Part shown: in pieces, positions 417-43,960 of the stretch
Position numbering within the stretch: the stretch's first letter is position 1
How the letters are laid out: the number at the start of each line of letters is the position of its first letter
NCBI GenBank assembly: GCA_038046345.1
Contig: JBBSWJ010000005.1
Span: forward strand, 24,784 to 88,783
Direction: 5' to 3'
DNA length: 64,000 nt
Source: Nanobdellota archaeon
GTDB lineage: Archaea > Nanobdellota > Nanobdellia > SCGC-AAA011-G17 > JACPNG01
Program-made: the position numbers and the translations under genes
The notes under the pieces: generated by a model
What the model saw: the letters and a program-made list of their open reading frames with translations, nothing else
Told to the model about the DNA's origin: nothing
Database searches by the model: none

Positions 417-439
417 GCTTATTGATAACTCTCTTATTT

Positions 440-1877: not shown

Positions 1878-1909
1878 AGCTGAACCACGTAATATTGCTT
1901 ATATAAAGC

Positions 1910-2689: not shown

Positions 2690-2723
2690 AACTATGAATT
2701 GCCCACCAAACTTTTAAATGTTT

Positions 2724-3663: not shown

Positions 3664-3703
3664 TTGTTTATTAAATAATAAAGCTTAATAAGTATTATTG
3701 TAA

Positions 3704-4036
3704 TCAATTATTTTTTTGTAAGTATAGGATTGCTCCAGCAATATCCCCTTCTTTTTCTAAAGCTTCTTTGGCTTCTTCTTCAGAACAGTTAGTTTGATCC
3801 ATAATTGTATTTATATCTTCTTGTGAGAACAGCTCCCTATCATGAACTTCAATGTCTCCTATTATCTGGAATGTATCTTGCCCCATCATATTAACTTTTG
3901 TAACTTGCGGGTTTAAGATAACTATTTCTTTGTCAGAAGTTTTAATGATTACTTCTTTTGCATCAATTTCTTCTTGTTTAATGCCTAGCTTCTTCATTGC
4001 TTTTTGCATTTCTTTAGGATTTATTCCAGGAAACAT
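3704..4036 (-). CDS. nac: nascent polypeptide-associated complex protein (archaeal NAC)
   Basis: Has the NAC-domain beginning MFPGINPKEMQKAMKKLGIK and a C-terminal UBA-like EEEAKEALEKEGDIAGAILYL. Confidence 0.85.
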   Translation of the reverse strand: MFPGINPKEMQKAMKKLGIKQEEIDAKEVIIKTSDKEIVILNPQVTKVNMMGQDTFQIIGDIEVHDRELFSQEDINTIMDQTNCSEEEAKEALEKEGDIAGAILYLQKNN

Positions 4037-4057
4037 GCAAGTTAGAAAAATATCAAA

Positions 4058-4065
4058 TATATAAA
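4058..4065 (-). promoter_or_regulatory. TATA box (TTTATATA on the minus strand) of nac
   Basis: A consensus-like archaeal TATA box lies 21 nt upstream of ATG 4036. This spacing implies a leaderless or near-leaderless mRNA. Confidence 0.5.
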
Positions 4066-4179
4066 ATTTCGCATTTTATGATAAATTCCGGTATAAGCGT
4101 AGTTTTATTACGCTTAATACATGTTAATTGCAATTTGAGAGCCCAAGCAAAACGGGGTACCAGCAGTGCAATATCCACT

Positions 4180-5049: not shown

Positions 5050-5176
5050 TCTTACCTTATATTCAGAGATTAGAGGATATTTATAATGTTTTATTTTATA
5101 ATTACTAACAAATTAATAATTGAAAAATGAGCTGGCCCCCCTAAAATATAGCCTGCTTCGCAGATTATTGATAATC

Positions 5177-5184
5177 TTTATATA
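5177..5184 (+). promoter_or_regulatory. TATA box (TTTATATA) of the HAD gene
   Basis: Lies 22 nt upstream of ATG 5207. Confidence 0.45.
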
Positions 5185-5206
5185 ATGTATTTTCTTTTCA
5201 ATAGGT

Positions 5207-5842
5207 ATGACTTACAAATTAGTTTGTTTTGATATGGATGGAGTGATATTCAAAGATGTTAATTTCTGGATGGAACTCCATAAGAAATTCGGAACATTAG
5301 CACAGGGTATAGAATTAACAAAAAAATATCTCCATACGGATTATGATAGATTAGTAGAAGAGGTTGTTGTAAAGTTATGGAAAGGAAAAAATGCAAAACT
5401 CTATTATGATTTAGTTAATTCTATTGAATATCTGCCTGGCGTTCAAGAAACTTTTGCCCATCTCAAAACTAGAGGTTACATGACTGCCATAATTAGTGCT
5501 TCAAGTATTGATGTTGCCAGAAGAGTACAAAAAGACTGGGGGGTAGATCATATTTTTGCTAATGAATTAGTTATAAGAAATGGAAAAGTTACAGGGGAAT
5601 TTATCTGGCCAATAGGTGCTGGAAAAGAAAAGAAAGCACAAATAATACAAGGTTTATGTTTTAGTTTGGGTATCTCACCGAAAGAAGTAATTTATGTTGG
5701 CGATGGTGATACTGATATTGAAGCGTTTAAAGAAGTTGGAATTTCTATTGCGTTTAATTCATCTTCAGAAGAACTTAAAAAAGTCGCCAAATATTCAGTG
5801 AATACACATAATCTTGCAGATGTGATTAAGTACATCCATTAA
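5207..5842 (+). CDS. HAD-superfamily hydrolase (phosphoserine-phosphatase-like, subfamily IB)
   Basis: Shows the HAD motifs FDMDGV (motif I), ISASS (II) and GDGDTD (IV). Confidence 0.75.
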   Translation: MTYKLVCFDMDGVIFKDVNFWMELHKKFGTLAQGIELTKKYLHTDYDRLVEEVVVKLWKGKNAKLYYDLVNSIEYLPGVQETFAHLKTRGYMTAIISASSIDVARRVQKDWGVDHIFANELVIRNGKVTGEFIWPIGAGKEKKAQIIQGLCFSLGISPKEVIYVGDGDTDIEAFKEVGISIAFNSSSEELKKVAKYSVNTHNLADVIKYIH

Positions 5843-6143
5843 ATCAATTTTGCCCTTTATTCTATGTCTTGATGTAACGCTTCGCTCTCGCCTTAGGTTC
5901 GGAGAAATAAAAACTAAGGCTTAAGGATAGTAATGGTATATTTTAGATTAGGCTACAAAGCACATTCAATAATAATATTATCATCTGGATCATTTTTGAC
6001 TACATCAACTTTCTTTTTTGGTTTTACTAAAGTTACAAATTCCAGACGTTTACTTTACAGCTCACTAAAAATTATTTATCTGACGCTGGGTATAATTTAT
6101 TTTGGGCTCTTCTATAAACTACAAAGAGTAGAGAAACAACGAA

Positions 6144-6731
6144 ATGGCAACATTTATAAACTACAGTAAATATAGTTTTACTATGATAAATATATACAAA
6201 CAAGAGTTAACAGTATTACAACAAGAAATATTAAGGTTGTTATTTGTTAAAGCCGGGGTGTCTTTGAATCAAAGAAGAATAGCAAGAATGCTCAAAGTAA
6301 CGCCTCCGGCAGTTATGAAAGCTCTTCCAAAATTAGAAGAAAAAGCCTTAATAAATTTAAATCAAGATGAAGATTCTAAGAGATGGTCCATTGAGTTAAA
6401 CAGGGACAATCATAAAGTTATCCAACTAAAGCGGGTGGACAATCTAAGGCAAATATATAGTTCTGGATTAGCCGATTTTTTAGAAAAAGAATTCGCAGGA
6501 GCCACTATAATCCTTTTTGGTAGTTATTCAAGAGGTGAAGACACAATAACATCTGATATTGATATTGTAGTAATCGGGAGAAAAGAGAAACAAATGAAAT
6601 TAACTAATTTTGATAAAGCACTTGAAAGAACTATCTTCATCAACTTTTATTCTTCCTTTAAAGAAGTTCATAAGCATTTGAGAGAAAATATTTTTAATGG
6701 GATAATACTTGCAGGCGGAATTGAAATATGA
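6144..6731 (+). CDS. nucleotidyltransferase-domain protein with N-terminal wHTH (MNT-type antitoxin-like)
   Basis: Carries the minimal NTase motif GSYSRGEDTITSDIDIVV. The alternative start ATG 6183 also has a TATA-like box upstream. Confidence 0.75.
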   Translation: MATFINYSKYSFTMINIYKQELTVLQQEILRLLFVKAGVSLNQRRIARMLKVTPPAVMKALPKLEEKALINLNQDEDSKRWSIELNRDNHKVIQLKRVDNLRQIYSSGLADFLEKEFAGATIILFGSYSRGEDTITSDIDIVVIGRKEKQMKLTNFDKALERTIFINFYSSFKEVHKHLRENIFNGIILAGGIEI

Positions 6732-7174
6732 AAGATTTAAAACAATTTGAGGAATTTATAAGGACAGGTATTATCAAAAAACAATCACCAGATAAATCGA
6801 GGTCAAAGTTTTTGGTTATGGAAGCTGAGCAAGGTTATACTTACTTGCTTAAGTTAATAAAAACAATGGGTATTGAAAATCGGAATGCTAATGATTATGT
6901 GAAAAATTGCTATGATATTTTAATGGAGCTGACAAGAGCAAAGATGTTGCTTGAGGGATTAAACGCTTCTGGCTTTAAGGCACATGAATCAGAGATTGCT
7001 TACTGGTGGATTTTGCAGTTTAAAGAACAAGATATCCGATTCTTAGATAAAATTAGATTCTTTAGGAATGGGATGCTTTATTATGGAACAATCTTGGATA
7101 AGGAATACGCAGAGAAAGTGATAGAATTTACAAAAAATAATTATCAAAAATTGAAGGCCATCTTAAATAAATGA
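6728..7174 (+). CDS. HEPN-domain-like protein, partner of the upstream NTase
   Basis: Overlaps the NTase gene by 4 nt (ATGA). It is a roughly 150-aa helical protein with an FRNGMLYYG segment typical of HEPN partners. The call rests partly on context. Confidence 0.6.
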   Translation: MKDLKQFEEFIRTGIIKKQSPDKSRSKFLVMEAEQGYTYLLKLIKTMGIENRNANDYVKNCYDILMELTRAKMLLEGLNASGFKAHESEIAYWWILQFKEQDIRFLDKIRFFRNGMLYYGTILDKEYAEKVIEFTKNNYQKLKAILNK

Positions 7175-7422
7175 AATTCCAAAATGAATGGTATAACCAC
7201 TACTAACGACCACATGATGGAAAAAACCAATTCTAACGCTTGATTTATAACAGTTGGTTGTGATGAAAGAATAAAAAAAGAAGCAGTCAACAAAGCGCAT
7301 TTGATTCTTAGAAAAATTGCAAAAACTGAGGCTAAACTTACATTAACCAAAAATAAATATGGAACGGCTACAATTACCAATAAGCCTTTCAAAAAGCGCA
7401 GTAAGAAGGTATATACAAACAT
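7144..7422 (-). CDS. possible small 3-TM membrane protein (doubtful)
   Basis: Hydrophobic ORF. The track start at 7494 would overlap the Sec61-beta gene, so I trimmed it to the internal ATG. It could be an AT-rich artefact. Confidence 0.25.
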   Translation of the reverse strand: MFVYTFLLRFLKGLLVIVAVPYLFLVNVSLASVFAIFLRIKCALLTASFFILSSQPTVINQALELVFSIMWSLVVVIPFILEFHLFKMAFNF

Positions 7423-7453
7423 GTAATAAACGAAATACGTAATTAGACGTTGT

Positions 7454-7606
7454 TTAAATCCTAGCAAAGATAATCCCAAAAATAGAAACAACAAGAATCA
7501 AACCGACAACAAATTTTGGTGATATCTTAATCTTGCTTTTATACTCATCAAAATACCGGACAATTCCTCCACCGCTAGAAGGCATTTGTATTTTTTCATT
7601 TGACAT
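7454..7606 (-). CDS. preprotein translocase subunit Sec61-beta (archaeal SecG/Sec-beta), 50 aa
   Basis: Own translation: MSNEKIQMPSSGGGIVRYFDEYKSKIKISPKFVVGLILVVSIFGIIFARI. It has the G(L/I)xRYFDE motif followed by a single C-terminal TM, as in archaeal Sec-beta. The track missed it because it is under 60 aa. Confidence 0.75.
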   Translation of the reverse strand: MSNEKIQMPSSGGGIVRYFDEYKSKIKISPKFVVGLILVVSIFGIIFARI

Positions 7607-7643
7607 AAAAAAAGAAAGAAAAAAAGGTTTAAAAGAGTTTTGA

Positions 7644-8660
7644 TTAGTTCTTGCCTAAGATTGCATTAGCATAAGCCAGCAACTCGCTGTTAGCTGGGCT
7701 ACTACCTGATTGAGTTTGAGCACTACTGCCCCAGTAGGCACAGCTGCCATCAAAACCTTTTAGCTGAGATGTTACATTTGCTCTCAGATTATTATGGTGG
7801 TTTGTTATAAGCTCAACACGATCATTTAATAGTCTACCACCATTCGCAAGATAGATCGCAGTGATATCTGCTGGGCCTATAACCATTATGTTATCAAGCA
7901 TGGCTTTAGCATTATCAAGGCTTTCAGTATATGCAATTGCTGCTTTTACTTGAGCGTCATGTGCATGATGTAACATCTCAATGCTATCCCTAGTCTGCTC
8001 AGCTCTATTATGCAGAGATCTTGCGCATGCAGCTTTTTCATTAATGTCTATTTCTAACAAATGGCGAGCAACATCATATCTTATCTGCTCAGTTTCAGTA
8101 TATGGCCCTTTTATTTTACTGGCTATTTCATGCATCAAGAACTCTTGTTCTGATCGATGGTCCATTAACGTGTCGTAAGCGTTAGCAGCATCAATTGTTT
8201 CTCTACCGCGGTGTTTAAGCAGTACTTTCACATTATTTTGTGAGGTCCTATAAACTGTGCATAATCTAGTCAGGCAATCACTTATCCTGCCCAATGCGTC
8301 GGTCATAACATTAAAGAGTTTTCTCAATCCGGATGGTTCTTTTCCTGTGTTCAAATTTTGAGTTCCATTAAACGAGTCATATACCCCGAATATTCTGTCT
8401 GTTAACCTTATGTTATTCGTAGCATACTTTGAAGCTCCTTTAACATATTTAGCGAACGCTTTGTCAAAAGTGTAGGAATCACCAAGTATAGCTCTTAAAG
8501 TTCTTCCTTCATCAATCATAGCAGGTTTATCTAATTGTAATACCTCTTTAGAAAGTAACCCTGCTCTTTCTAGTCTTTCATCTAGGCTTAATATCTCTGC
8601 TTTCCCATTACCATTATCGGTTTCATTAATATCAATAACTGTTTCTTTTGCTGTGTTCAT
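7644..8660 (-). CDS. hypothetical helical protein, 338 aa, with higher GC than its neighbours
   Basis: Long ORF with no motif I can place. Confidence 0.6.
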   Translation of the reverse strand: MNTAKETVIDINETDNGNGKAEILSLDERLERAGLLSKEVLQLDKPAMIDEGRTLRAILGDSYTFDKAFAKYVKGASKYATNNIRLTDRIFGVYDSFNGTQNLNTGKEPSGLRKLFNVMTDALGRISDCLTRLCTVYRTSQNNVKVLLKHRGRETIDAANAYDTLMDHRSEQEFLMHEIASKIKGPYTETEQIRYDVARHLLEIDINEKAACARSLHNRAEQTRDSIEMLHHAHDAQVKAAIAYTESLDNAKAMLDNIMVIGPADITAIYLANGGRLLNDRVELITNHHNNLRANVTSQLKGFDGSCAYWGSSAQTQSGSSPANSELLAYANAILGKN

Positions 8661-8837
8661 ATAAATCCCCCCAGATAGTTTTTATAATCTGAAAGAATTT
8701 TGGCCAAATCTCTTTCAATAATTAAACATCCTAATTTCTGAATGTTATGAAAAAATAAAAAGAAAACCTTATTAAAAAAGGTTAATACTAAAAAACCGAA
8801 ATTATTACAGTATTCTATAAATATTTTTCAAACTAGA

Positions 8838-9893
8838 CTAACCAAAAGTAAATGTATTAAACAAAAATCCTTTCTTGTTTATATCTAACTTTAATGTATA
8901 ACTACCATGATTTCCTTCAATTAAGCTATACAGCCTAGCGGTATCAACAACCACAAATGACCGGGCCCCATCGAATTTTATATCAACACCAGCCTGATCT
9001 TTTGTTACATAATCATCATTTATATAAACGTCCATCTCTAAAGGTTCAGTTGAATGAGCAACTATATTCGCTGATTTACCAGAAAACTTAATGACTACAG
9101 ACGCTCTATCAAGATTTTCTAAGCTGTCTTGGTTGCTTAACCATAAACCATCAAGATAGAGAACATCATCTTCAAGTTTAACAGGTAAAGTATAATTTTT
9201 AACTTGATCCGGAGACAACCCCCCATTTGCTACATCTTGTTTTCTTGGCAAAGCAAATTTATATCCGGCGTATATCTCTGGTGTATAAGATAAATCAGAA
9301 GAACTAGGAATATCAGCAATTAAATCCATGTCTATTGCTTCCCCATTTTCAGCTAAAAGTTCCTGAATAACTTTTTCAGTTTCTTCATAAGCTCCTTCTC
9401 CTATATGGTCATACCGAATAAACCCATTTCTATCAATAAGGTATTTTCTTGGCCAATACTTATTCTGATATGCCCTCCAAGTTGCGTAATCATTATCTTG
9501 AACAACTGTGTAGCTAATGTTAAATCTTCTAATTGCATCTTGTACATTATTTGCATCTTTCTCAAACGGGAATTCTGGAGTGTGGACACCAATGATAACA
9601 AGCCCTTTATCGGAATAACGGTTATGCCATTCATTTAAGAATGGGATAGTGTGAATACAATTTATACAGGTGTATGTCCAAAAGTCAATTAAGATAACTT
9701 TACCATTAAGATCTTTGATTGATGGTTTATAGTCTGAATTAAAAAAACCAGAAATTCCAACTAGCTCAGGAGCTTTTATTAAACCATTCTCGATCACTGG
9801 TTCTTCTGAATACTCATTATTAGCACGCTCAAAATAATAAATAACCAAGACAACTATTATCAAAGTAATAATTAGCTTGTAAATTATTTTCAT
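8838..9893 (-). CDS. membrane-anchored thioredoxin-like protein with a DipZ-type C-terminal domain
   Basis: Has an N-terminal TM and the motif FWTYTCINC (CxxC) in a TlpA/redoxin-like fold. The C-terminal roughly 150 aa end in ...FTFG, as I recall for DipZ-type proteins. Confidence 0.75.
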   Translation of the reverse strand: MKIIYKLIITLIIVVLVIYYFERANNEYSEEPVIENGLIKAPELVGISGFFNSDYKPSIKDLNGKVILIDFWTYTCINCIHTIPFLNEWHNRYSDKGLVIIGVHTPEFPFEKDANNVQDAIRRFNISYTVVQDNDYATWRAYQNKYWPRKYLIDRNGFIRYDHIGEGAYEETEKVIQELLAENGEAIDMDLIADIPSSSDLSYTPEIYAGYKFALPRKQDVANGGLSPDQVKNYTLPVKLEDDVLYLDGLWLSNQDSLENLDRASVVIKFSGKSANIVAHSTEPLEMDVYINDDYVTKDQAGVDIKFDGARSFVVVDTARLYSLIEGNHGSYTLKLDINKKGFLFNTFTFG

Positions 9894-9923
9894 GAAGTTG
9901 GTAGCAGTTGAATATTTATAATA

Positions 9924-10652
9924 TTAATCCTTAACAGTCAAAAAAGCAAGATAAGCTAGAAATGTTGGAATCAATGGTAATATGCACGGACTCAAAAATG
10001 AAAGAAGCCCGCCAATAAATGCAATGCCTATATTTAAAGATCCATTAAAGCCATAATTATTCAAGTTTAGTTTTATAAGAAAATCTGCTGCAAATGAAAA
10101 GTTTGCAATACTGCTTAATTGATTAGTAAACACTAGTATTCCTAACAATATTAATATCACTCCAAATATTTTAGAAAGATATTTAGTTAAATTACCAGTA
10201 GCTGTTATAAACTTTTTAGCATGATCAGTAAATAATCCCACTAATAAAAATGGTATACCCAAACCAAGAGAGTAAGCAAACAATAAATAAGCTGCATGCG
10301 TTGGAGATACAACTGCTAAAGTAAGTATTGCACCAAGTATACCACTTACACAAGGTGTCCAACTAACTGCGAAAGCTGCGCCAAACACAAATGAGGTAAG
10401 ATAAGCTGAATTAAACCTTTTTTTTATTTTAAGCTTGTGGCTTATTTCAAAGAATCTAATTTTGATAAAACCTAGTAAATAGATACCAAAAATAATTATG
10501 ATTATGCCCCCAACTCTTCCAAGCCATTTTAGCACAACTAATGGCGCATGAGAAAAAACAGTTTGAAGCAATACCCCAATAATTGAGAATATAACTGAAA
10601 AGCCTAAAACAAAGAAAATAGTATTTATAAAAATTGTATAATCTTTTTTCAT
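9924..10652 (-). CDS. ccdA: CcdA/DsbD-family thiol-disulfide transporter with permuted helix order
   Basis: The motif WTPCVSGILGAIL (TM4-type) is mid-protein. The motif LSFLSPCILPLIPTFLAYL (normally TM1) is at the extreme C-terminus. The N-terminus starts with the FFVLGFSVIF segment that normally follows TM1. Confidence 0.75.
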   Translation of the reverse strand: MKKDYTIFINTIFFVLGFSVIFSIIGVLLQTVFSHAPLVVLKWLGRVGGIIIIIFGIYLLGFIKIRFFEISHKLKIKKRFNSAYLTSFVFGAAFAVSWTPCVSGILGAILTLAVVSPTHAAYLLFAYSLGLGIPFLLVGLFTDHAKKFITATGNLTKYLSKIFGVILILLGILVFTNQLSSIANFSFAADFLIKLNLNNYGFNGSLNIGIAFIGGLLSFLSPCILPLIPTFLAYLAFLTVKD

Positions 10653-10812
10653 GATATCATTAAAATAATGTCAATATATATAATTTTTGTTTAATAAAAA
10701 TGTAGGAAAACAAAGGTTTTAAAATTGCTTTTTGCGCAATAATTTAATCTAAGAGGAAACTTTTCTAAAGGTTTATAAACTCAAGCGTTCCATTATATAT
10801 AAGGAGCTAAAA

Positions 10813-11241
10813 ATGGACGAATTACCAGAAGCGGTATTTACATGGAAGGTAAGAGAAGATGGTTTAACAGAAGTAGTACAAGGTCATGCAACAATAAAAG
10901 ATATTTTATACGAAATAGCAAGGCAGGCTTATAGAGCATCAGTAATGGAGGCACCAATACCAGGACAATCCACGGACCCTCCATCAGACGAATTTCTAGC
11001 ACCATATTTTGCTCACTTACAATTTCCAACAGATGGAATAAGTATAGCGAGAACTGATAGACATGAAACTGATGAATTATTTGGGATGGACTATGTTGGT
11101 GGTTTGCCAGTTAAAACTTCAGTTGTCGCTAGAGATGGAAAAATATTGTTTTGTAGTAGATTATATGACATGAATCATCGTGTTGATCATCTACATGTAA
11201 TGCGAACTGCAAATATGGCACTTGAAATAAGATTACAATAA
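10813..11241 (+). CDS. hypothetical protein
   Basis: ORF preceded by AAGGAG 8 nt upstream of the ATG. No recognisable motif. Confidence 0.55.
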   Translation: MDELPEAVFTWKVREDGLTEVVQGHATIKDILYEIARQAYRASVMEAPIPGQSTDPPSDEFLAPYFAHLQFPTDGISIARTDRHETDELFGMDYVGGLPVKTSVVARDGKILFCSRLYDMNHRVDHLHVMRTANMALEIRLQ

Positions 11242-11614
11242 ATTTTAAAATTAAGACGCCAACCTCTTTTTTATTATTTCTTCAAATCTTAGATTTGACC
11301 AATTTTTTAGCCAGAACCTTAAATTGAAACTAACAACTATTAAGTGAGATGAATATTCGCTTAATATTACCATTTAGGATAAAAAGCGAGATTTTAGATA
11401 TTTCTTCCCCATATAACAGACTATATGTCAGATGAGGGTAAAAGTTATTCTCCAAATCCAGAAATACAGATTAATTAGCAAATTGATCAAGAAAATAAAC
11501 CTCAGAAGTTATTAAAATTAACTTAAGATATATCAATTTATTCTTTTAGAAAAGATAATCTGAAAGATTTTCGATTTTTTATGGTAGAAAAATATAAAGT
11601 AGTAAAGTATAATA

Positions 11615-12127
11615 GTGAATATGAAAGAAATAATCTTAATTCTGCTATTAACCTGTGGATGTGTAAGCATTCCAGAAGCTGGCATTGTAACAGAAGTAAT
11701 TGATGGTGATACATTCAAATTAAGCACAGGAGAAAGAGTAAGATTATTATGCATAAACACTCCAGAAAATGGTGAACCATATTTTAAAGAAGCAAAAGAT
11801 TTTTTAGAAAATTCTATATCCGGAAAAATAGTAAGATTAGAAGTAGACAAAACAAATTTAGATGATTACAGAAGATTATTACGTTATGTTTATGTTGATG
11901 ACATCTTAATAAATGAAGTTATTACAAAAGAAGGTCTTGCAGAAGTATTGATAATAAAACCAAACATAAAACATTGTGACAAAATAAAGCTAGCCGAAAA
12001 AATAGCACAAGAACAAAAAAAAGGTATTTGGAGTGTCAACCATGCAGGCTATCCGGAAGATACGCTAATGTTTCAAACTGCTGTGGTAACGGATAAATCA
12101 AAAAGTCACCACGTTGCATTGCAGTAG
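11615..12127 (+). CDS. secreted thermonuclease (staphylococcal nuclease-like)
   Basis: Has an N-terminal signal or lipobox-like LLLTCGC, then DGDTFKL...VRLLCINTPE...RLLRYV...KKGIW. The last roughly 30 codons overlap the convergent gene. Confidence 0.75.
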   Translation: MNMKEIILILLLTCGCVSIPEAGIVTEVIDGDTFKLSTGERVRLLCINTPENGEPYFKEAKDFLENSISGKIVRLEVDKTNLDDYRRLLRYVYVDDILINEVITKEGLAEVLIIKPNIKHCDKIKLAEKIAQEQKKGIWSVNHAGYPEDTLMFQTAVVTDKSKSHHVALQ

Positions 12128-12713
12128 TTATTCCAGAATTACCAGCACTACGCATAGCAGCTCCTACCATACCTTTCAAAACCATAACTTTTACCTGTTC
12201 ATCATTAATAAACTCATCCCCTTCAAAAAGTATTCTAAATTCGTCTAAAGCATTAGTAGAACGTAATATTCGTATTCTTTCACTTTTATCCAACTCGCCT
12301 TTAAATTCAGTATCATCAGGGACAACATCATCTAACCAATCAATATTTACAACTACAAGTAAAGAATAATTTCCTTTCATTGCGTTATAATCTTTTCTTG
12401 AAAAAGCTTCTTTTATTACTAAAACCTCCCCTTGTGTTAATTTAAAAGTCTCATCACTATTCAAGTCCTTTACACCGAATACAAAAGCATTATCCTTATC
12501 ATATAAGTATAACACCTTATCTGCGTTGCTTAATATTTCTTTAATCTGAGATGTTTCCTTAAGGATATTTTGAACAAAAAAACCACCAATGGATAATACA
12601 ATAACAAAAATCACAAAGATAATGCTAAGAATTTTTATAATAAACTTAGTAGTTCTAACAAACCACCAAACTAATAATATTATTAAAATTATAGGAATAA
12701 TTAGCCAGATCAT
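12036..12713 (-). CDS. hypothetical protein with two N-terminal TM helices
   Basis: ORF with a hydrophobic N-terminus. No recognisable motif. Confidence 0.5.
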   Translation of the reverse strand: MIWLIIPIILIILLVWWFVRTTKFIIKILSIIFVIFVIVLSIGGFFVQNILKETSQIKEILSNADKVLYLYDKDNAFVFGVKDLNSDETFKLTQGEVLVIKEAFSRKDYNAMKGNYSLLVVVNIDWLDDVVPDDTEFKGELDKSERIRILRSTNALDEFRILFEGDEFINDEQVKVMVLKGMVGAAMRSAGNSGITTAMQRGDFLIYPLPQQFETLAYLPDSLHG

Positions 12714-12764
12714 GGCTGTTTAACACCAGCAGTGTTTTTAAATATATTTGTAGTAAATTATCAT

Positions 12765-13118
12765 ATGGCAAACAAAAAAAGCTGCCACATATTAAGAGAA
12801 AAAGGAACCGAACCACCATTCACTGGAAAGTATTTGTACAACAAACAGAATGGAGTATACAAATGCGCTGGTTGCGGGCAGGAATTATTTTCTTCCCAAA
12901 AAAAATTTGATTCCGGAACTGGATGGCCAAGTTTTACTGAAGGAAAAAACATAGAACTAAAAGAAGATACAAGTTTTGGAATTAAAAGATTAGAAGTAAT
13001 ATGTAAAAAATGTAAAGGACATTTAGGTCACTTATTTAATGACGGACCAAGACCTACAAAGAAAAGATATTGCATTAACTCAGGTGCATTAAGCTTTAAC
13101 AAAATTAATAGCAGGTGA
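12765..13118 (+). CDS. msrB: peptide-methionine (R)-S-oxide reductase MsrB
   Basis: Has CAGCGQELF...GWPSF, CKKCKGHLGHLFNDGP and RYCINS. The start is set at ATG 12765, which has TTTTAAATA about 20 nt upstream. Confidence 0.85.
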   Translation: MANKKSCHILREKGTEPPFTGKYLYNKQNGVYKCAGCGQELFSSQKKFDSGTGWPSFTEGKNIELKEDTSFGIKRLEVICKKCKGHLGHLFNDGPRPTKKRYCINSGALSFNKINSR

Positions 13119-13472
13119 AACAACAATTGGGCGTTCAGCAATATCAACTGAAGCTGTTCTGAATGATTTTTTTAAATTTTCAAACACATTCTTCCCATCA
13201 AATTCTCCCCTGCAAGTATAAATTGAAAAGTATAAAGAATCATGTTCTGGATAAGTATGAATTGCAGCATGAGATTCAGATAACAATACTAAAATTGTAA
13301 GTCCCTGTGGTTTAAACTGATGTCTAAATACTTTAAGAATTGTAAACTTGTCAATTTTTAAAGCATACAGCAAAGATTTTTCTAAGAAATTATTATCTAA
13401 TAAAATCTTTTTTGGAACTCCATGCATTACACATGATATTTCATTTCCTACAGGACTTGATTCATACTCCAT
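13089..13472 (-). CDS. speH: S-adenosylmethionine decarboxylase proenzyme (small archaeal/bacterial type)
   Basis: Carries the LLSESHAAIHTYPE self-processing and active-site motif. Confidence 0.8.
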   Translation of the reverse strand: MEYESSPVGNEISCVMHGVPKKILLDNNFLEKSLLYALKIDKFTILKVFRHQFKPQGLTILVLLSESHAAIHTYPEHDSLYFSIYTCRGEFDGKNVFENLKKSFRTASVDIAERPIVVSPAINFVKA

Positions 13473-13646
13473 AGTGCAAATTATTAAGAATAGTTATTTA
13501 AAAAATTATTGTTTTTTAAAATATACTTCTTGTTTGTCTTAAGCATTCTAATTGCTATCTTTATCAACTGGATAAACAGGCCATCTGAACCCTCACGTGA
13601 AAACTGCCATTAATGCCTCATATGATTTATTCTTATCTACAAATGG

Positions 13647-14051
13647 TTATTTACGTAAAATCTTATCCATTACTTTACCTTTTGCTATCTCATCAACAAG
13701 CTTATCCAGATACCTTACTTGTTGTGTTAACGGGTTTTTGATTTCTTCTATACGATATCCACATATTACTCCTGTAATGAGATGAGCATTCGGAGTTAAT
13801 TTTGCTTTCTGAAAGAATATTTTAAAAGTTACTTTTTTATCAATAAGATTTTGTAGTTTCTTTTCATCAAAACCAGTTAACCACTCAATTACTTGATGCA
13901 ACTCTTTCTTTGTTCTACCTTTCTTCTCCACTTTTGCTACATAGTGCGGATACACAGATGAAAATGTCATATTTGCAATACGCTCATCGTGTTCGGATGT
14001 TGTTTTCATAATTATTTTTCCTTTTTTAAATTTTTGAATTCGTGTTTCCAT
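13647..14051 (-). CDS. DUF2200-like protein
   Basis: MTFSSVYPHYVAKVEKKGRTKKELHQVIEWLTG resembles the DUF2200 family as I recall it. The true start may be ATG 14009. Confidence 0.55.
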   Translation of the reverse strand: METRIQKFKKGKIIMKTTSEHDERIANMTFSSVYPHYVAKVEKKGRTKKELHQVIEWLTGFDEKKLQNLIDKKVTFKIFFQKAKLTPNAHLITGVICGYRIEEIKNPLTQQVRYLDKLVDEIAKGKVMDKILRK

Positions 14052-14284
14052 AGTATAAGTTAAATTAGATTTTTATATAAAGTTTGCTAGGCACCAACTC
14101 AAATTGAATATAACTTAGGCGATTAAACAAATATTTATCTGCTTTATAGCATAATATTGCAAAAAAAGCAGTTACGCAAAGTTTTCAACTATTATAACCC
14201 GAATTTTTAATGAAAATTTTTTAAAAACTCTACATGTAATAATTTAAAACTAACTCTAAAAATAAATCAATCTAATAAAAAAAG

Positions 14285-14315
14285 TGATATCATGTATATT
14301 GTGTGTAAAATGGTC
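14285..14315 (-). other. 3' half of the 23S pre-rRNA processing stem
   Basis: The sequence tgatatcatgtatattgtgtgtaaaatggtc pairs with 17306..17342. The paired blocks are attgtgtgtaa/ttacacacaat (11 bp), tgatatc/gatatca and ggtc/gacc. Confidence 0.7.
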
Positions 14316-17305
14316 TCGAGCTATTGGAAAATGCAGGCTTAATTTCTCGTTGCCTTGAAACTTACACCCCACTCCCATCAAACAGATCTTCTATCTGTGC
14401 TCTCCTTCTCTTTTCAAGGTGGGTTTCGTCCTTAGATGCTTTCAGGACTTATCCCACAAGGCGTAGCTGCCCGGCCTGCCTTGTCAGACAACCGGTACAC
14501 CAGAGGCCTCGAATCCTCGTTCCTCTCGTACTAAAGGATCCTTCCCCTCAGAAGATAAACAAATCCAGTAGATATCATACAAACTGTCTCACAACGTTCT
14601 TAACCCAGCTCACGATCCCTTTTAATAAGTGAACACCTTCACCCTTGGCCGCAAGCAGTACGTGGAAACTGTTAATTTCGACATACCATGCTCTTTTCCG
14701 CGCATTTCTGCACGACCACTCTACGATACAAGAATCTAATCTTTGTATCCGGATAGGAAGAGCCGACATCGAGGTAGCAAGCAGCGCCGTCGATAAACTC
14801 GGAATCAATTTATTGATCCTTTGAGCTCTTAGGCGCTACAACTCAATTATGCCCGAGATAGCTTTTCTGTCATGTCTAGCCCCCATCAATGAGGACATAG
14901 AAGTTCGCTAGGCCATACTTTCGTACCTGAATCCCGTATTGTTTGGAATCCAGTCAAGCCAGCTTTTGCCCTTGCACTCCACAGAGAATTTCTAAATCTC
15001 TTGAGCTGACCTTTGGGCCCTACTGATATCCTTTCAGCAGGGTCCCGCCCCAGGCAAACTATCCGCCAGTAGTTGTCTTTCATTACTGAAGTAAGTAATA
15101 TAGAATACAGAGGGTAGTATCTCACTTTTGCCTAAACGTACACTGGCGTGCACGCATCAACAGCTCCTACCTATTCTTAACACCATACTCCATACCACAG
15201 CTACAAGCTATAGTAAAGTTCTACGGGGTCTTCGCTTCCCACTGGAATTCTCTGGCCTTTGCACCAGAATAGTGTGTTCGGGAGGTTCTACGTAAAGACA
15301 GTGGATACCTCGTTACGCCATTCATGCAAGTCGTCAATCAAACGACAAGGTATTACGCTACCTTAAGAGAATTATAGTTATTCCCGCCGTTTACACGCTC
15401 TTAGCCCCCTTGAAAAGGAGTTTAAAGTACATGCACTGGGCAGACGTCACCTCCTATACAAACCATTACTGGCTAGCAGGAAGTTTCGTTTTTGTTAAAC
15501 AGTCGGGCATCCTTAGTTATTGAATCCTGTACTCGCAACTAAAAGCTACAAGCGCAGGAACCCCTTATGCCGAAGTCACAGGGCCAATATTGCCGATTTC
15601 CTTTACGTAAATTACCCCTCTCATACCTTAGGCTACTAACCCAGGGCACCTGTGCTGGTTCTGGATACGGTTATTTATGATCCTTCCATATTGTTTTTTC
15701 ACGGGCTCAAGGCATCTACCCAATCAACATACATTGACTATTCTCAGCTTTTCTCAGGTTCTCATCATGACAATTCTCCCCTGACATATGCTAATTAACA
15801 ACCATGTCTATGATTGTGGGTATAGCCCAAAGCAGCAACAATAAGGCTTTCGTCGCCGAATGTACATAAATAGTACTGGAATATTAACCAGTTTGCCTCT
15901 TCCCGCACGTCAATTTATGAGTGCAGTTAGGTCCGACTAACTCTTAGCTGAACTGCAGTGCTAAGAAAACCTTGCCCTTTCGGTATTAGAGAGTCTCACT
16001 CTATATAGGTCCTACTACCACCGGGATTCTTATTCGTACACGGTCCATTTACTTTCACAAGTATACTTCCATCCATGCACGACACCTATCTACCACCTTG
16101 CTTTACAGCAAGTCTGAAGTATCGGTCGTCAGTTTAGCCCCGTTAATTTTCAGGGCATAATACCTTGACGGGTGAGCTATTACGCTTTCTTTAGAGGATG
16201 GCTGCTTCTAAGCCAACCTCCCCGCTGTCTCTGGTATTACACACCATTCACCCTTTCACACTTAACTGACAGTTAGGGACCTTAACTTCAGGCTGGGATG
16301 TTCCCCTTTTGGGACACACGCTTACCGCGCGCCCCTGCTTCCCGCCTTCTACGACGCATTGACATTTGGAGTTGAACAAGAGTGAGAGGAATTTCTTCCC
16401 TTAACATTCTAATCCGTAGCTCTACAACCAATGCTATCTCGAGCGAGACTATTCTGCGGCATATTTCGATAGGAACAGGCTATTAGCAAACTCGATTGGC
16501 TTTTCACCCCTAATCCCAAATCATAAGAGCACATGCACGTAGCACCTCTTCAGGCCTCCACCTCGTATCACCAAGGCTTCACCTTGCTCAGGATTAGATC
16601 GTCTGCTTTCCGGTCAGACCCCCATGACTTAAGGCGCTTTCACACCTCGCTCCTCGCAAGCTGCGAGCATTTGCTTTCGCTCAGCATTCGTACTAAAAGT
16701 ACTTACGCTCGCCATGAAGATCAACTCCCCGGCCCGTTATTCAAAACGTACGGTGCAACTCATGCTGCACCATTCTATAACCGTAAGGTTTCAGGAACTT
16801 TTCACACCCTATCAGAGGTACTTTTCAATGTTCCATCACTGTACTATTTGCTATCGGACTTAAAACATATTTAGCCTTAGAAGTTGATGCCTCCTAAATT
16901 CCTGCTCAATATCCAATGAACAGTACTATGGATACTTGTAAATCTTTCACGATTATCCTACGGGGCTATCACCCTGTGTCGCATACCATTCCAGATAACT
17001 TTAGATAAACATGTTAAGATGAAAAACAAGTCCAAACACCACATGTTGCTTCTTTTTCAAGAAGTAATTCGGTTTAGGCTATACGGATTTCGCTCGCTGT
17101 TACTCACCGCATCTCAATTGATTTCTTTTCCTGCGGGTACTAAGACGCTTCAGTTCCCCGCGTTATACATCCTCTCGGATTTAATAGGAAGTCCTATTCG
17201 GGAATCATTGGTTCGTAGGCTGCATGCGCCTCGCCAATGCATTTCGTAGCTTGCCACGCCCTTCATCTTTGTTTTTAAGCCGAATCATCCACCTTACGGC
17301 GTAAT
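14316..17305 (-). rRNA. 23S rRNA (ends approximate)
   Basis: Reverse-complement matches are seen to the sarcin-ricin loop AGUACGAGAGGAAC (near 14520), GAGCUGGGUU.AGAACGU.GUGAGACAGUU, CCUCGAUGUCGGCU, AAGACCCCGU and the 5' GGAUGAUUCGGC...GAAGGGCGUGGCAAGC. The gene is bounded by a long flanking inverted repeat. Confidence 0.9.
14795..14820 (-). other. 26-nt BHB-like insert (candidate mini-intron) in 23S helix 89
   Basis: RNA sense reads AAGA-GCUC-AAA-GGAUCAAUAAAUUGAUUCC-GAGU-UUA-UCGAC. The elements are a 4-bp helix GCUC:GAGU (one G.U), 3-nt bulges AAA and UUA, and an inner 7-bp hairpin. Removal gives GAGCUCAAAUCGACGG, against the canonical GAG(U/C)(U/C)CAUAUCGAC. Confidence 0.45.
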
Positions 17306-17342
17306 GACCTATAATTACACACAATACCTATACACGATATCA
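17306..17342 (-). other. 5' half of the 23S pre-rRNA processing stem
   Basis: Complement of 14285..14315. Confidence 0.7.
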
Positions 17343-17440
17343 TTAAATGAATATTTCATCTGTCCTAAGACTATGATATCCTTCACCCACAACAATTCAG
17401 TTTGTGAGTTGCACTATTTCATTAAAAAATGAATATGATA

Positions 17441-17548
17441 TGGACCCGTCGGGAAAATCGACGATCCAAGATGTCTAATGCAAATCGTTTTCGAACCCGA
17501 GGCCCCTACCTTGCAAGGGTAATGCTCTACCAGCTGAGCTACGGGCCC
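17441..17548 (-). tRNA. tRNA-Ala(UGC) with a 35-nt intron in the T-loop, located in the 16S-23S spacer
   Basis: RNA: GGGCCCG UA GCUC AGCUGGUA GAGC A UUACC CUUGCAA GGUAG GGGCC UCGGG UUCGAA[35 nt]U CCCGA CGGGUCC A. The G3:U70 alanine identity pair is present and the anticodon is UGC. Confidence 0.85.
17455..17489 (-). other. BHB intron of tRNA-Ala between T-loop positions 59 and 60
   Basis: The outer helix h is the T-stem UCGGG:CCCGA. The central helix H is UUCG:CGAU (3 bp plus U.U). The bulges are AAA and UUU. The inner helix h' is ACGAU(UU):(GG)AUCGU. Cutting after the 2nd bulge nt gives a 7-nt T-loop UUCGAAU. Confidence 0.75.
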
Positions 17549-17564
17549 AAACAATTGGATTGAC

Positions 17565-17599
17565 TGTACGAGATTAATTTCAGTGATTAGAATAGTAAA
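17565..17599 (-). other. 3' half of the 16S pre-rRNA processing stem
   Basis: tgtacgagat (17565-74) pairs with atctcgtaca (19205-14). gaatagtaaa (17590-99) pairs with tttactactc (19178-87), with one G.U at the RNA level. Confidence 0.65.
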
Positions 17600-17605
17600 A
17601 AAAAT

Positions 17606-19140
<1,535 letters not shown>

Positions 19141-19177
19141 TATTTTGGTCGCATAAAATTGGAAATTTTTGTAATAC

Positions 19178-19214
19178 TTTACTACTCATAACCATTGCTG
19201 CTTTATCTCGTACA
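19178..19214 (-). other. 5' half of the 16S pre-rRNA processing stem
   Basis: Complement of 17565..17599. Confidence 0.65.
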
Positions 19215-19329
19215 TCATACTTAATACTTCTGATTAAGTATTCACGTATTATATCACTAAAGTGATATTTTAAGAAGATTAAAAACTATGCTCAATCTTC
19301 ATTAAGTGAAACAAGTGTTGGCATCTAGC

Positions 19330-19337
19330 TTATAAAT
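19330..19337 (-). promoter_or_regulatory. candidate rRNA operon TATA box (ATTTATAA on the minus strand)
   Basis: This is the only strong TATA-like element upstream of the 16S leader, about 115 nt before the processing stem. Confidence 0.35.
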
Positions 19338-19448
19338 ATTTCTGTTCATGTGCTATAGCATGATAAACGAAAAATTAGTTTGGGCCTGACTTTCAATTTC
19401 GTATAACATACGAAGTCAGGTAAAAGATATTCGTATCCAAAACTGCTT

Positions 19449-19706
19449 TCATTTCCTAGCTTTCTTTATGGCACTTTCAACATCAGCTTTGGTTATACCT
19501 TTCTCCTTGGCGAATTGCTGCGTTTTTTGAAGCAGTTTATCAAAGTTTTTGAATGAAGGCATCGTTACTTTTTTTAGTATGACTGTATCATCTTCTCCAA
19601 CAACTACAAATTTTTCCCCTTCCTTTAAGCCTAATTGCTCCCTTATATCCAAAGGTATAACTACCTGCCCTCTTGAGCTCATGCTTGTTATTTCCAATCT
19701 TTGCAT
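19449..19706 (-). CDS. AbrB/MazE/SpoVT-family DNA-binding protein (antitoxin-like, no adjacent toxin)
   Basis: SSRGQVVIPLDIREQLGLKEGEKFVVV is a typical swapped-hairpin AbrB motif. Confidence 0.75.
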   Translation of the reverse strand: MQRLEITSMSSRGQVVIPLDIREQLGLKEGEKFVVVGEDDTVILKKVTMPSFKNFDKLLQKTQQFAKEKGITKADVESAIKKARK

Positions 19707-43900: not shown

Positions 43901-43960
43901 GAAACAAGCTTACTGGTATAATTTCCAGGCTTGCGCAATACCAAGTTATGCGATCTCGGC
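43865..43960 (-). tRNA. tRNA-Ser(GGA) with a 12-nt canonical intron
   Basis: The acceptor is GCCGAGA/UCUCGGC with discriminator G. The anticodon stem is CAAGC/GCUUG and the loop is CU-GGA-A[AUUAUACCAGUA]A. It has a long variable arm (UCC-UAAC-GGA) and T-arm GCAGG-UUCAAAU-CCUGC. Confidence 0.85.
43911..43922 (-). other. canonical (37/38) BHB intron of tRNA-Ser
   Basis: The central helix is CUGG:CCAG and the bulges are AAA and UAA. Confidence 0.75.

What the first reader, a model, noticed from the sequence alone, without database searches (positions are those of the whole stretch)
14795..14820. 26-nt BHB-like micro-insert at the tip of 23S helix 89
Between GCGCCUAAGAGCUCA and UAUCGACGGCGC there are about 26 extra nt. 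The canonical sequence there is ...AAGAG(U/C)(U/C)CAUAUCGAC..., which I remember from E. coli and methanogen 23S.

In RNA sense the region parses as GCUC / AAA / GGAUCAAUAAAUUGAUUCC / GAGU / UUA.
- a 4-bp helix GCUC:GAGU with one G.U
- flanking bulges: two 3-nt bulges on opposite strands
- an inner 7-bp hairpin

This has the geometry of a BHB, though the outer exon-exon helix is weak (2 bp before an internal loop). At the base of helix 89, the stem shows compensatory changes (A2455-U2496 and G2456-C2495 equivalents), so this rRNA is under selection. The insert could be the smallest kind of rRNA intron or a lineage-specific tip extension.
Basis: partly seen in the sequence, partly recalled or inferred. 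Interest (0 to 1): 0.5.

Follow-up and report, generated by a model that had tools for sequence, protein, structure and literature searches.

The report
Mini BHB intron in 23S helix 89
The 26 extra bases at the tip of helix 89 of this archaeon's 23S rRNA gene are most likely a tiny protein-spliced (bulge-helix-bulge) intron, one of at least five in the same rRNA operon. This is a known kind of element at what appears to be an undescribed site, in a DPANN (Nanoarchaeota) genome.

Summary
The 23S gene (window 14304-17316, minus strand) has 28 nt where the archaeal LSU model has 2, exactly at 14795-14820. The insert and its flanks form a strict hBHBh' motif: GA:UC, then GCUC:GAGU, with AAA and UUA bulges on opposite strands, then GGA:UCC.

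Cutting after the second nucleotide of each bulge removes exactly 26 nt and restores a canonical-length helix 89 loop. A 12-nt intron at position 37/38 of a tRNA-Ser in the same window is consistent with that cut rule.

Four more rRNA inserts in the operon (23S after 2521 and 2534; 16S after 793 and 800) also have in-phase BHB cores. So does a T-loop intron in the spacer tRNA-Ala.

Two very distant uncultured archaea carry unrelated 36-nt and 29-nt inserts at the same helix 89 position with the same geometry. About 90 other archaeal 23S genes have none. An independent assembly has the identical sequence.

Splicing itself is not shown, because no RNA data could be searched. Short hairpin BHB introns in archaeal rRNA genes are already described, so this is a new member of a known kind.

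The parts
14304..17316 (-). 23S rRNA gene (host gene)
   Evidence: Rfam RF02540, 2405 bits, full length model 1-2987
14795..14820 (-). Predicted 26-nt mini-intron AGGAUCAAUAAAUUGAUUCCGAGUUU. It lies after E. coli position 2477 in the terminal loop of helix 89. The 5' cut is at 14821|14820 and the 3' cut at 14795|14794.
   Evidence: Strict BHB scanner; insertion length; shuffle P = 5.8e-4
14827..14828 (-). Exonic helix h, 5' strand (GA). It pairs with UC at 14792-14793, and these are the top two base pairs of helix 89.
14823..14826 (-). Central 4-bp helix, exon strand GCUC (helix 89 loop nucleotides 2472-2475)
   Evidence: pair probabilities 0.98-0.99
14820..14822 (-). 5' bulge AAA. The predicted cut is after the second A.
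   Evidence: unpaired probability 1.0
14801..14819 (-). Intronic hairpin h' (GGAUCAAUAAAUUGAUUCC). It folds either as GGA:UCC next to the central helix followed by UCAA:UUGA, or as 7 bp in the MFE register.
14797..14800 (-). Central 4-bp helix, intron strand GAGU
14794..14796 (-). 3' bulge UUA. The predicted cut is after the second U, and the A becomes the first 3'-exon nucleotide.
14792..14793 (-). Exonic helix h, 3' strand (UC)
14719..14750 (-). Sister mini-intron of 32 nt, after E. coli 2521 (helix 90/helix 91 junction). BHB: UC CUAU ccg GAUACAA..UUGUAUC GUAG agu GG. Splicing restores the universal AUCC|UGG.
   Evidence: shuffle P = 7e-5
14653..14705 (-). Sister mini-intron of 53 nt, after E. 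coli 2534 (helix 91 loop). BHB: GCAG aaa UGCG..CGUA CUGC uug. Splicing restores the 18-nt helix 91.
   Evidence: shuffle P = 2.7e-4. The exon helix is offset by one U (relaxed form).
18380..18411 (-). 16S mini-intron A of 32 nt, after E. coli 793 (790 loop). BHB: UUAG aua CAAAUAUU..AAUAUUUG CUAA aua.
18342..18372 (-). 16S mini-intron B of 31 nt, after E. coli 800. BHB: CCCG aga GUGAUGUG..UAUAUCAC CGGG aau. A 7-nt micro-exon ACCCGAG (18373-18379) separates it from intron A.
17455..17489 (-). 35-nt BHB intron at position 59/60 in the T-loop of the spacer tRNA-Ala(UGC) gene (17441-17548)
   Evidence: Sequence, parsed by hand. The spliced T-loop is UUCGAAU. Rfam matches only part of the gene.
43911..43922 (-). 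12-nt BHB intron at the canonical position 37/38 of tRNA-Ser(GGA) (gene 43865-43960). It serves as an in-genome check of the cut rule.

Best explanation
The 26 nt are an ORF-less bulge-helix-bulge (BHB) mini-intron in the terminal loop of helix 89 of the 23S rRNA gene of a DPANN archaeon (annotated by NCBI as a Nanoarchaeota MAG).

In the pre-rRNA, four helix 89 loop nucleotides (GCUC) pair with the 3' end of the insert (GAGU). This 4-bp helix is flanked by the 3-nt bulges AAA and UUA on opposite strands. It is closed on the exon side by the top two pairs of helix 89 (GA:UC) and on the intron side by the insert's own hairpin.

The archaeal tRNA-splicing endonuclease (EndA) would cut after the second nucleotide of each bulge. 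An RtcB-type ligase would join the exons to give ...AAGAGCUCAA|AUCGAC..., a canonical-length helix 89 loop, and would probably circularise the 26-mer.

What is shown: the structure, its phase, its recurrence in this genome, and its recurrence at the same site in other lineages. What is inferred from the established archaeal pathway: cleavage, ligation and the enzymes. The intron itself probably has no function for the cell. It is likely a minimal remnant or selfish passenger that persists because it is removed cleanly.
For: 1. Insert size and position: a 26-nt insert at 14795-14820.

2. Motif: a strict hBHBh' with a 4-bp central helix, two 3-nt bulges, and h of 2 and h' of 3 Watson-Crick pairs. 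This matches the definition in PMC7714728. The MFE fold draws it, and the central-helix pair probability is 0.98-0.99.

3. Phase: the BHB-predicted excision length equals the insertion length, and the spliced loop has the canonical length. For shuffled inserts P = 5.8e-4. In-phase BHBs occur at 0.3% of random pseudo-insertions in the same rRNAs.

4. Cut rule: consistent with this genome's own tRNA-Ser. It places a 12-nt intron at 37/38 and gives anticodon GGA on a tRNA with a long variable arm.

5. Sister inserts: four other rRNA inserts in the operon lie at universally conserved functional sites (16S 790 loop; 23S helix 90/91). All have in-phase BHB cores whose removal restores consensus sequence such as AUCC|UGG and GGAUUAGAU|ACCCGAG|UAGUCC.

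6. Other lineages: the two organisms found by the metagenome scan (L121/L122 and L125) share only 64-71% 23S identity with the window and each other. They carry 36-nt and 29-nt inserts of unrelated sequence at the same helix 89 position, with the same geometry. There is one compensatory change in the central helix, U:A to C:G.

7. Absence elsewhere: about 90 other archaeal 23S genes have no insert there.

8. Independent assembly: it has the same sequence.

9. Precedent: short (<50 nt) hairpin BHB introns in archaeal rRNA genes, including pairs 7-8 nt apart, are described (PMC4496867).
Against: - No RNA-level evidence was available: no junction reads and no circular intron reads.
- EndA and RtcB genes are not in the 64-kb window, so their presence in this genome is assumed.
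- The exon helix is only 2 bp and the central helix contains a G.U.
- No close relative exists in the searched data (the next homologue of a neighbouring protein is 53% identical). Recent gain or loss therefore cannot be shown.
- For three of the four sister inserts, local thermodynamic folding does not favour the 4-bp central helix (probability <0.1).
- No BHB processing stems were found around the 16S and 23S genes.
Confidence: 0.85

Rival explanations
1. Retained expansion: the 26 nt stay in the mature 23S rRNA as a lineage-specific extension of the helix 89 tip, and the BHB-like shape is incidental.
For: The insert is a stable hairpin that could stack on helix 89. The three lineages carrying an insert here differ in length (26, 29 and 36 nt), which superficially resembles expansion-segment variation. 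DPANN rRNAs are divergent: this one has G2447C, C2452U and A2453U.
Against: - The length differences are confined to the inner hairpin. The 4-bp helix and the two 3-nt bulges are invariant in geometry although the sequences are unrelated.
- In-phase BHB by chance is about 0.06-0.3%.
- No length variation at this loop was seen in about 100 other 23S genes.
- The same architecture occurs in inserts within the 16S 790 loop and helix 91, which are very unlikely to tolerate insertions. That they would not tolerate them is an inference from ribosome biology.
- Helix 89 and helices 91-92 are A-site components that fold with uL16 and the sarcin-ricin loop (PMC11912913).
Confidence: 0.08
2. Intervening sequence without ligation: the BHB is cut by EndA but the ends are not rejoined, giving a 23S rRNA fragmented at helix 89. 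This would be analogous to bacterial intervening sequences.
For: The same structural evidence as for the intron. Archaeal EndA also acts at non-intron BHB sites in pre-rRNA (PMC7714728).
Against: The neighbouring inserts leave micro-exons of 7 nt (16S) and 13 nt (23S) that carry universally conserved nucleotides. These would be lost without ligation. Known archaeal BHB cleavage products are ligated (PMC7714728).
Confidence: 0.05
3. Artefact or dead gene: the insert is an assembly error, or the operon is a decaying pseudogene accumulating junk insertions.
For: The source is a metagenome-assembled genome. Three unusual substitutions occur in the peptidyl-transferase core.
Against: An independent ENA assembly with different contig ends is identical through the insert. 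The gene scores 2405 bits full length. Of 27 key functional nucleotides checked, 23 match E. coli. Of the other four, A2058G is, from my knowledge, the usual archaeal state; G2447C, C2452U and A2453U are unusual. Random junk would not form five in-phase BHB motifs.
Confidence: 0.02

Closest known systems
Short (<50 nt) hairpin-forming BHB introns of 16S rRNA genes in Thermoproteales, Desulfurococcales and Aigarchaeota (Jay & Inskeep 2015, PMC4496867)
   Same: Size class, no ORF, and a BHB core made of exon and intron nucleotides. Insertion is in highly conserved rather than variable rRNA regions. Several can occur per gene, including pairs separated by 7-8 nt, as with the 7-nt micro-exon here.
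   Different: The host gene and site differ: 23S helix 89 loop, after E. coli 2477. The 16S sites here (793, 800) are not among the 13 listed loci (374...1391). The host is a mesophilic, AT-rich DPANN/Nanoarchaeota MAG rather than a thermophilic crenarchaeon. No homing-endonuclease intron is nearby.
Classical archaeal 23S rRNA introns (Desulfurococcus, Pyrobaculum, Staphylothermus, Aeropyrum). The properties listed are from my own knowledge; only confirms that these orders carry 23S rRNA introns.
   Same: Removed at a BHB by the tRNA splicing endonuclease, with exons ligated and the intron circularised. Located in functionally important parts of domains IV and V.
   Different: Those are hundreds of nucleotides long and often encode LAGLIDADG homing endonucleases. 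This one is 26 nt with no coding capacity.
Archaeal pre-tRNA BHB introns, canonical (37/38) and non-canonical (e.g. 59/60 in ARMAN-2; PMC5829648)
   Same: Same motif and presumably the same enzymes. The window itself holds one of each type (tRNA-Ser 37/38, tRNA-Ala 59/60), with the same AAA 5' bulge as the helix 89 intron.
   Different: The host RNA is rRNA. The exon helix is the top of helix 89 rather than an anticodon or T stem.
rRNA expansion segments (e.g. Asgard ES9/ES39; from my own knowledge)
   Same: Extra helical RNA inserted at the tip of a conserved helix.
   Different: Expansion segments sit on the subunit periphery, vary gradually in length among relatives, are retained, and have no reason to form a 3-4-3 BHB in phase with the insertion boundaries.

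Membership tests
Archaeal BHB (splicing-endonuclease) intron | Central helix of exactly 4 bp | tested here: met
   GCUC:GAGU, 3 Watson-Crick pairs plus 1 G.U; pair probabilities 0.98-0.99
Archaeal BHB (splicing-endonuclease) intron | Two 3-nt bulges on opposite strands, each immediately 3' of its central-helix strand | tested here: met
   AAA (14820-14822) and UUA (14794-14796). The tRNA-Ser intron in the same window has the same topology.
Archaeal BHB (splicing-endonuclease) intron | Flanking helices h (exon side) and h' (intron side), each with at least 2 Watson-Crick pairs (canonical hBHBh'; PMC7714728) | tested here: met
   h = GA:UC (2 bp); h' = GGA:UCC (3 bp), continued by UCAA:UUGA
Archaeal BHB (splicing-endonuclease) intron | Symmetric cuts in the bulges remove exactly the inserted sequence and restore the intron-less gene | tested here: met
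   Predicted excision is 26 nt and the insertion is 26 nt. The spliced AAGAGCUCAA|AUCGAC has the canonical 16-nt length.
Archaeal BHB (splicing-endonuclease) intron | Sporadic presence or absence at a homologous site, with the BHB core kept while the intron sequence differs | tested here: met
   Absent in about 90 archaeal 23S genes. Present with unrelated sequence in L121/L122 (36 nt) and L125 (29 nt, one C.A mismatch).
Archaeal BHB (splicing-endonuclease) intron | Cleavage by EndA, exon ligation and intron circularisation in vivo | not testable with these tools
   No RNA-seq or circRNA data could be searched
Archaeal BHB (splicing-endonuclease) intron | Genome encodes EndA and an RtcB-type ligase | tested here: inconclusive
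   Neither is among the 40 ORFs (mostly >=150 aa) scanned of the 64-kb window. The rest of the genome was not available.
rRNA expansion segment | Located in a region that varies in length among rRNAs | tested here: not met
   The helix 89 loop has a fixed length in all other 23S genes examined and in the Rfam consensus
rRNA expansion segment | Retained in mature rRNA | not testable with these tools
   Needs RNA data
Group I / group II self-splicing intron | Catalytic RNA core recognisable by covariance models | tested here: not met
   No Rfam intron family matched in the window. 26 nt is far too short for such a core.

The most novel reading that the evidence does not exclude
The helix 89-tip (2477) and helix 91-loop (2534) positions may be recurrent targets for ORF-less mini-introns across very deeply separated archaea. 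The window organism, L122 and L125 share both sites at only 64-71% 23S identity. Some uncultured archaea carry dozens of such 22-60-nt BHB introns per rRNA operon: at least 27 in-phase ones in L122.

This would imply one of two things. Either mini-introns spread without a homing endonuclease, for example by reverse splicing through EndA and ligase followed by reverse transcription and recombination. Or the introns in the late-folding A-site module are very old and may act as an assembly checkpoint.
Probability: 0.2. Interest if true: 0.65.

Novelty: new member of a known kind. Interest (0 to 1): 0.4.

Why it matters
If spliced as predicted, this extends short BHB rRNA introns, known mainly from thermophilic Crenarchaeota and Aigarchaeota, to a groundwater DPANN archaeon. 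It also extends them to a helix 89 loop site that I did not find described.

The work shows that small-genome archaea can carry at least seven BHB introns within one 64-kb stretch: five in rRNA and two in tRNA.

There are practical consequences. The two 16S introns interrupt the binding region (E. coli 785-806) of widely used universal 16S primers (785F/806R class, from my own knowledge), so amplicon surveys may miss such organisms. The tRNA-Ala and tRNA-Ser genes are missed or miscalled by standard tools.

The shared intron sites in distant lineages offer a testable handle on how ORF-less archaeal introns originate and spread.

Tried and rejected
- The single genome-contig scan used too loose a pattern. 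It served only as a panel of about 100 intron-less 23S genes.
- A viral-contig scan found nothing.
- The metagenome scan gave 5 loci. One was a bacterial duplication artefact (L123) and one a chance hit in a protein-coding region (L124).
- The search for BHB processing stems flanking the 16S and 23S genes gave only chance-level candidates.
- ARAGORN found no tRNAs in default mode. With introns allowed it miscalled tRNA-Ser as tRNA-Thr and produced a spurious 1.9-kb-intron tRNA.
- Looking for close relatives through a neighbouring protein failed: the next homologue is 53% identical and sits on a 1.7-kb contig. The NCBI protein P0001 was not on record for contig look-up.
- The attempt to name the organism of L122 through its spacer ORF gave no taxon.
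- A repeat or mobile-element origin of the 26-mer was rejected: there is no other copy in the window at up to 3 mismatches.
- Loose BHB scanning alone is uninformative, with 1023 hits in 5.6 kb. Only in-phase matches at insertion sites were used.
- Literature searches found no description of a helix 89 intron. The library is incomplete, so this is not proof of novelty.
Full report
**What is there.** The window carries an archaeal rRNA operon on the minus strand: 16S at 17606-19140 and 23S at 14304-17316 (Rfam, 1342 and 2405 bits).
- In the covariance-model alignment, the window has 28 nt between AGAGCUCA and UCGAC where the consensus has 2.
- MAFFT alignments to five euryarchaeal 23S genes and to E. 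coli rrlH place the same 26-nt window-specific insertion in the terminal loop of helix 89.
- The RNA reads ...GCGCC UAA GA GCUC AAA GGAUCAAUAAAUUGAUUCC GAGU UUA UC GAC GGCGC....

**Anatomy.** I wrote a scanner for the strict bulge-helix-bulge topology: exon helix h, a 4-bp helix, then a 3-nt bulge on the 5' strand; intron helix h', the complementary 4 nt, then a 3-nt bulge and h on the 3' strand.
- The scanner finds exactly one such motif spanning the insert: h = GA:UC (14827-14828 with 14792-14793), central helix GCUC:GAGU, bulges AAA and UUA, and h' = GGA:UCC continued by UCAA:UUGA.
- This meets the published definition of a canonical hBHBh' motif: a 4-nt helix, two 3-nt bulges, and outer helices of at least two Watson-Crick pairs (PMC7714728).
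- An unconstrained fold of 61 nt gives this structure as the minimum (-21.3 kcal/mol, z = -3.4).
- In a 113-nt context the central-helix pairs have probability 0.98-0.99 and the 5' bulge is unpaired with probability 1.0.

**Phase test.** With symmetric cuts in the two bulges, the excised length equals the distance between the two central-helix strands.
- That distance is 26 nt, the same as the insertion.
- Cutting after the second bulge nucleotide gives ...AAGAGCUCAA|AUCGAC.... This has the 16-nt length of the intron-less sequence AAGAGNNCAUAUCGAC seen in about 100 other 23S genes.
- The cut rule can be checked inside this genome. The Rfam tRNA at 43865-43960 has the core CAAGC CUGG aaa UUAUA CCAG uaa GCUUG. 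The rule removes 12 nt at position 37/38 and yields anticodon loop CUGGAAA, i.e. tRNA-Ser(GGA). This fits the tRNA's long variable arm. ARAGORN's alternative parse, Thr, does not fit it.

**Chance.** Loose BHB matches are common: 1023 in 5.6 kb. I therefore asked only for in-phase motifs at insertion sites.
- Shuffling the 26 nt in place gives an in-phase BHB as good as the observed one in 0.058% of 200,000 trials.
- Random pseudo-insertions of 20-60 nt in the real rRNAs give a minimal in-phase BHB in 0.3%.

**The insert is not alone.** The alignments reveal four more inserts in the operon, all at universally conserved positions.

| Gene and site (E. coli numbering) | Length | Window coordinates | BHB core | Result of splicing |
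|---|---|---|---|---|
| 23S after 2521 | 32 nt | 14719-14750 | UC CUAU ccg GAUACAA..UUGUAUC GUAG agu GG | restores the universal AUCC\|UGG |
| 23S after 2534 (helix 91 loop) | 53 nt | 14653-14705 | GCAG aaa UGCG..CGUA CUGC uug | restores an 18-nt helix 91 |
| 16S after 793 (790 loop) | 32 nt | 18380-18411 | UUAG aua, 8-bp hairpin, CUAA aua | see below |
| 16S after 800 | 31 nt | 18342-18372 | CCCG aga, 8-bp hairpin, CGGG aau | see below |

- MAFFT reports the two 16S introns as one 63-nt insert in the 790 loop. They are separated by a 7-nt micro-exon, ACCCGAG.
- Removing both gives GGAUUAGAU|ACCCGAG|UAGUCC. This has the same length as the archaeal consensus GGAUUAGAUACCCGGGUAGUCC and differs from it at one base.
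- Shuffle P values for these four range from 2.7e-4 to below 5e-6.
- The spacer tRNA-Ala (17441-17548) carries a 35-nt insert in its T-loop with the core UCGGG UUCG aaa ACGAUUU..GGAUCGU CGAU uuu CCCGA. Its removal gives the canonical T-loop UUCGAAU (parsed by hand). Position 59/60 is a known non-canonical intron site in DPANN tRNAs (PMC5829648).
- Caveats: three of the four sister inserts lack an adjacent exon helix or have it offset by one nucleotide, which makes them relaxed forms. For three of them, local folding does not favour the 4-bp helix (probability <0.1). The helix 89 intron is the best-formed of the set.

**Comparative evidence.** A pattern scan of 241 million metagenome records looked for 10-40 extra nt at this loop and returned three genuine 23S contigs from two organisms.
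- L121/L122 have 36 extra nt: GA GCCC auu CGUCUAGU..GUUAGGCG GGGC gua UC. Splicing gives AAGAGCCCAU|AUCGAC, which fits the pattern AAGAGNNCAUAUCGAC seen in most of the intron-less archaeal genes.
- L125 has 29 extra nt: GA GCCC acg GUGGA..UCCAU AGGC aua UC. It has one C.A mismatch.
- The three intron sequences are unrelated and the inner hairpins differ in length. The 2 + 4 bp, 3-nt bulge geometry and the insertion position are the same.
- The third central-helix pair changes on both sides: U:A in the window, C:G in the other two.
- The three 23S genes are only 64-71% identical to each other, about as far apart as each is from Sulfolobales, Hadarchaeota or methanogens. This is a rough MAFFT-based estimate.
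- All three also share the helix 91-loop site 2534, with central helices GCAG:CUGC or GCAG:CUGU.
- About 90 archaeal 23S genes from Halobacteria, Methanomicrobia, Methanosarcinales, Sulfolobales, Hadarchaeota and others have no insert at helix 89.
- The pattern is presence or absence at one exact site, with a conserved BHB core and free intron interior. That is the pattern expected of an intron, not of an expansion segment.

**Source and reliability.**
- A neighbouring protein is 100% identical to an NCBI entry from a 'Nanoarchaeota archaeon' MAG. The next homologue is 53% identical, so no close relatives were available.
- An independently assembled ENA contig from Hainich groundwater (L127) ends inside the 23S gene. 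It matches window 3647-15270 with two mismatches, neither in the inserts.
- Of the 27 key functional nucleotides checked, 23 match E. coli. Of the other four, A2058G is, from my knowledge, the usual archaeal state; G2447C, C2452U and A2453U are unusual. The gene does not look like a pseudogene.

**Mechanism (inferred).** By analogy with established archaeal tRNA and rRNA splicing, EndA recognises the BHB and cuts both bulges. An RtcB-type ligase then joins the exons and circularises the intron (PMC7714728; PMC6125680).
- Helix 89 and helices 91-92 are A-site elements that fold late together with uL16 and the sarcin-ricin loop (PMC11912913).
- From general ribosome knowledge, the 16S 790 loop is an interface and P-site element. 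Retention of inserts there is implausible. By parsimony, the helix 89 insert, built the same way, is removed too.
- Neither enzyme gene lies in the window, and no RNA data could be queried. Splicing is therefore predicted, not shown.

**Rivals.**
- A retained tip extension (about 8%) would need the BHB geometry, its phase, and its recurrence in three lineages and five sites to be coincidental.
- Cleavage without ligation (about 5%) would discard the 7-nt and 13-nt micro-exons, which hold conserved nucleotides.
- An artefact or pseudogene (about 2%) is contradicted by the second assembly and by the conservation of the gene.

**Relation to what is known.**
- BHB introns in archaeal rRNA genes are long established.
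[quoted passage not shown] These include pairs 7-8 nt apart.
- Nawrocki et al. (PMC6125680) note BHB introns next to group I introns in archaeal rRNA genes; many of their host sequences are from DPANN phyla.
- The present element is therefore a new member of a known kind.
- What appears new is the site (23S 2477; also 2521, 2534 and 16S 793, 800, none of which are in the published 16S list), the host (a mesophilic DPANN MAG), and the sharing of sites 2477 and 2534 among very distant lineages.
- It is not the smallest such intron. L122 has a 22-nt example.
- I found no description of a helix 89 intron in the searchable literature, but that library is incomplete.

**Verdict.** Novelty is modest, and interest is moderate (0.4). 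The interest comes mainly from the clustering of mini-introns in functional centres, the practical consequences for primer-based and tRNA-finding surveys, and the side observation of rRNA operons with dozens of mini-introns.

Noticed in passing
window 14719-14750 and 14653-14705 (minus strand): Two further mini-introns in 23S domain V: 32 nt after E. coli 2521 and 53 nt after 2534. They are separated by a 13-nt micro-exon (UGGUCGUGCAGAA). Their removal restores AUCC|UGG and an 18-nt helix 91.
   Followed up: yes
window 18342-18411 (minus strand): The 63-nt 'insert' in the 16S 790 loop is two adjacent BHB mini-introns of 32 and 31 nt, after E. coli 793 and 800, with a 7-nt micro-exon ACCCGAG between them. 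They interrupt E. coli positions 785-806, where (from my own knowledge) widely used universal 16S primers bind.
   Followed up: yes
window 17441-17548 (minus strand): The spacer tRNA-Ala(UGC) has G3:U70 and a 35-nt BHB intron in the T-loop (59/60; intron 17455-17489). Rfam matches only 57 nt of the gene and ARAGORN misses it.
   Followed up: yes
window 43865-43960 (minus strand): A class II tRNA-Ser(GGA) with a 12-nt BHB intron at 37/38 (43911-43922). ARAGORN with introns enabled calls it tRNA-Thr(GGT).
   Followed up: yes
window 14851, 14846, 14845 (minus strand): Unusual substitutions in the peptidyl-transferase core relative to E. coli and the archaeal consensus: G2447C, C2452U and A2453U, while C2499 is unchanged. 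In the alignment U2586 also reads A and C2594 reads U. The other key nucleotides checked are conserved, apart from the usual archaeal G2058.
   Followed up: partly
L122 (SMTZ1_10000220) 705-2884 and 6375-10485; L121 is the same organism: An uncultured archaeon whose 16S is 2180 nt and 23S is 4111 nt. It has at least 12 + 15 inserts of 22-37 nt (plus a few over 100 nt) that form strict in-phase BHB motifs. That is roughly 27 or more mini-introns in one rRNA operon, including inserts at 23S 2477 and 2534 and at 16S 793. The lineage was not identified.
   Followed up: partly
L125 (Ga0315310_10003851) 408-4108: Another uncultured archaeon with a 3701-nt 23S gene. It carries about 8 in-phase BHB inserts of 29-110 nt, including sites 2477 and 2534 and one at 2517, 4 nt from the window's 2521 site.
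   Followed up: partly
window 51116-53482 (minus strand): The aEF-2 ORF begins with an intein-splicing domain (Pfam PF14890), so the EF-2 gene appears to contain an intein. The upstream extein part was not examined.
   Followed up: no
window 13900-14303, 17317-17605, 19141-19700: No convincing BHB-bearing processing stems were found flanking the 16S or 23S genes, and Rfam detects no 5S rRNA in the window.
   Followed up: partly
L060 (uncultured archaeon) and L001/L010/L019/L037 and similar loci (Eremiobacteraeota, Dormibacteraeota): L060 has foreign sequence directly upstream of AACAGAG (about E. coli 2449), which is probably another intron. Several Eremiobacteraeota and Dormibacteraeota 23S genes have non-canonical sequence replacing the 5' side of the helix 89 region.
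   Followed up: no
window 14450, 15270, 21060: Independent assemblies (Logan ERR3858113-5, ENA ERZ1292643) all break inside or next to this rRNA operon. L030, labelled Nanoarchaeia, has a 23S fragment about 82% identical to the methanogen-type reference 23S genes L096 and L083, so it may be mis-binned.
   Followed up: no
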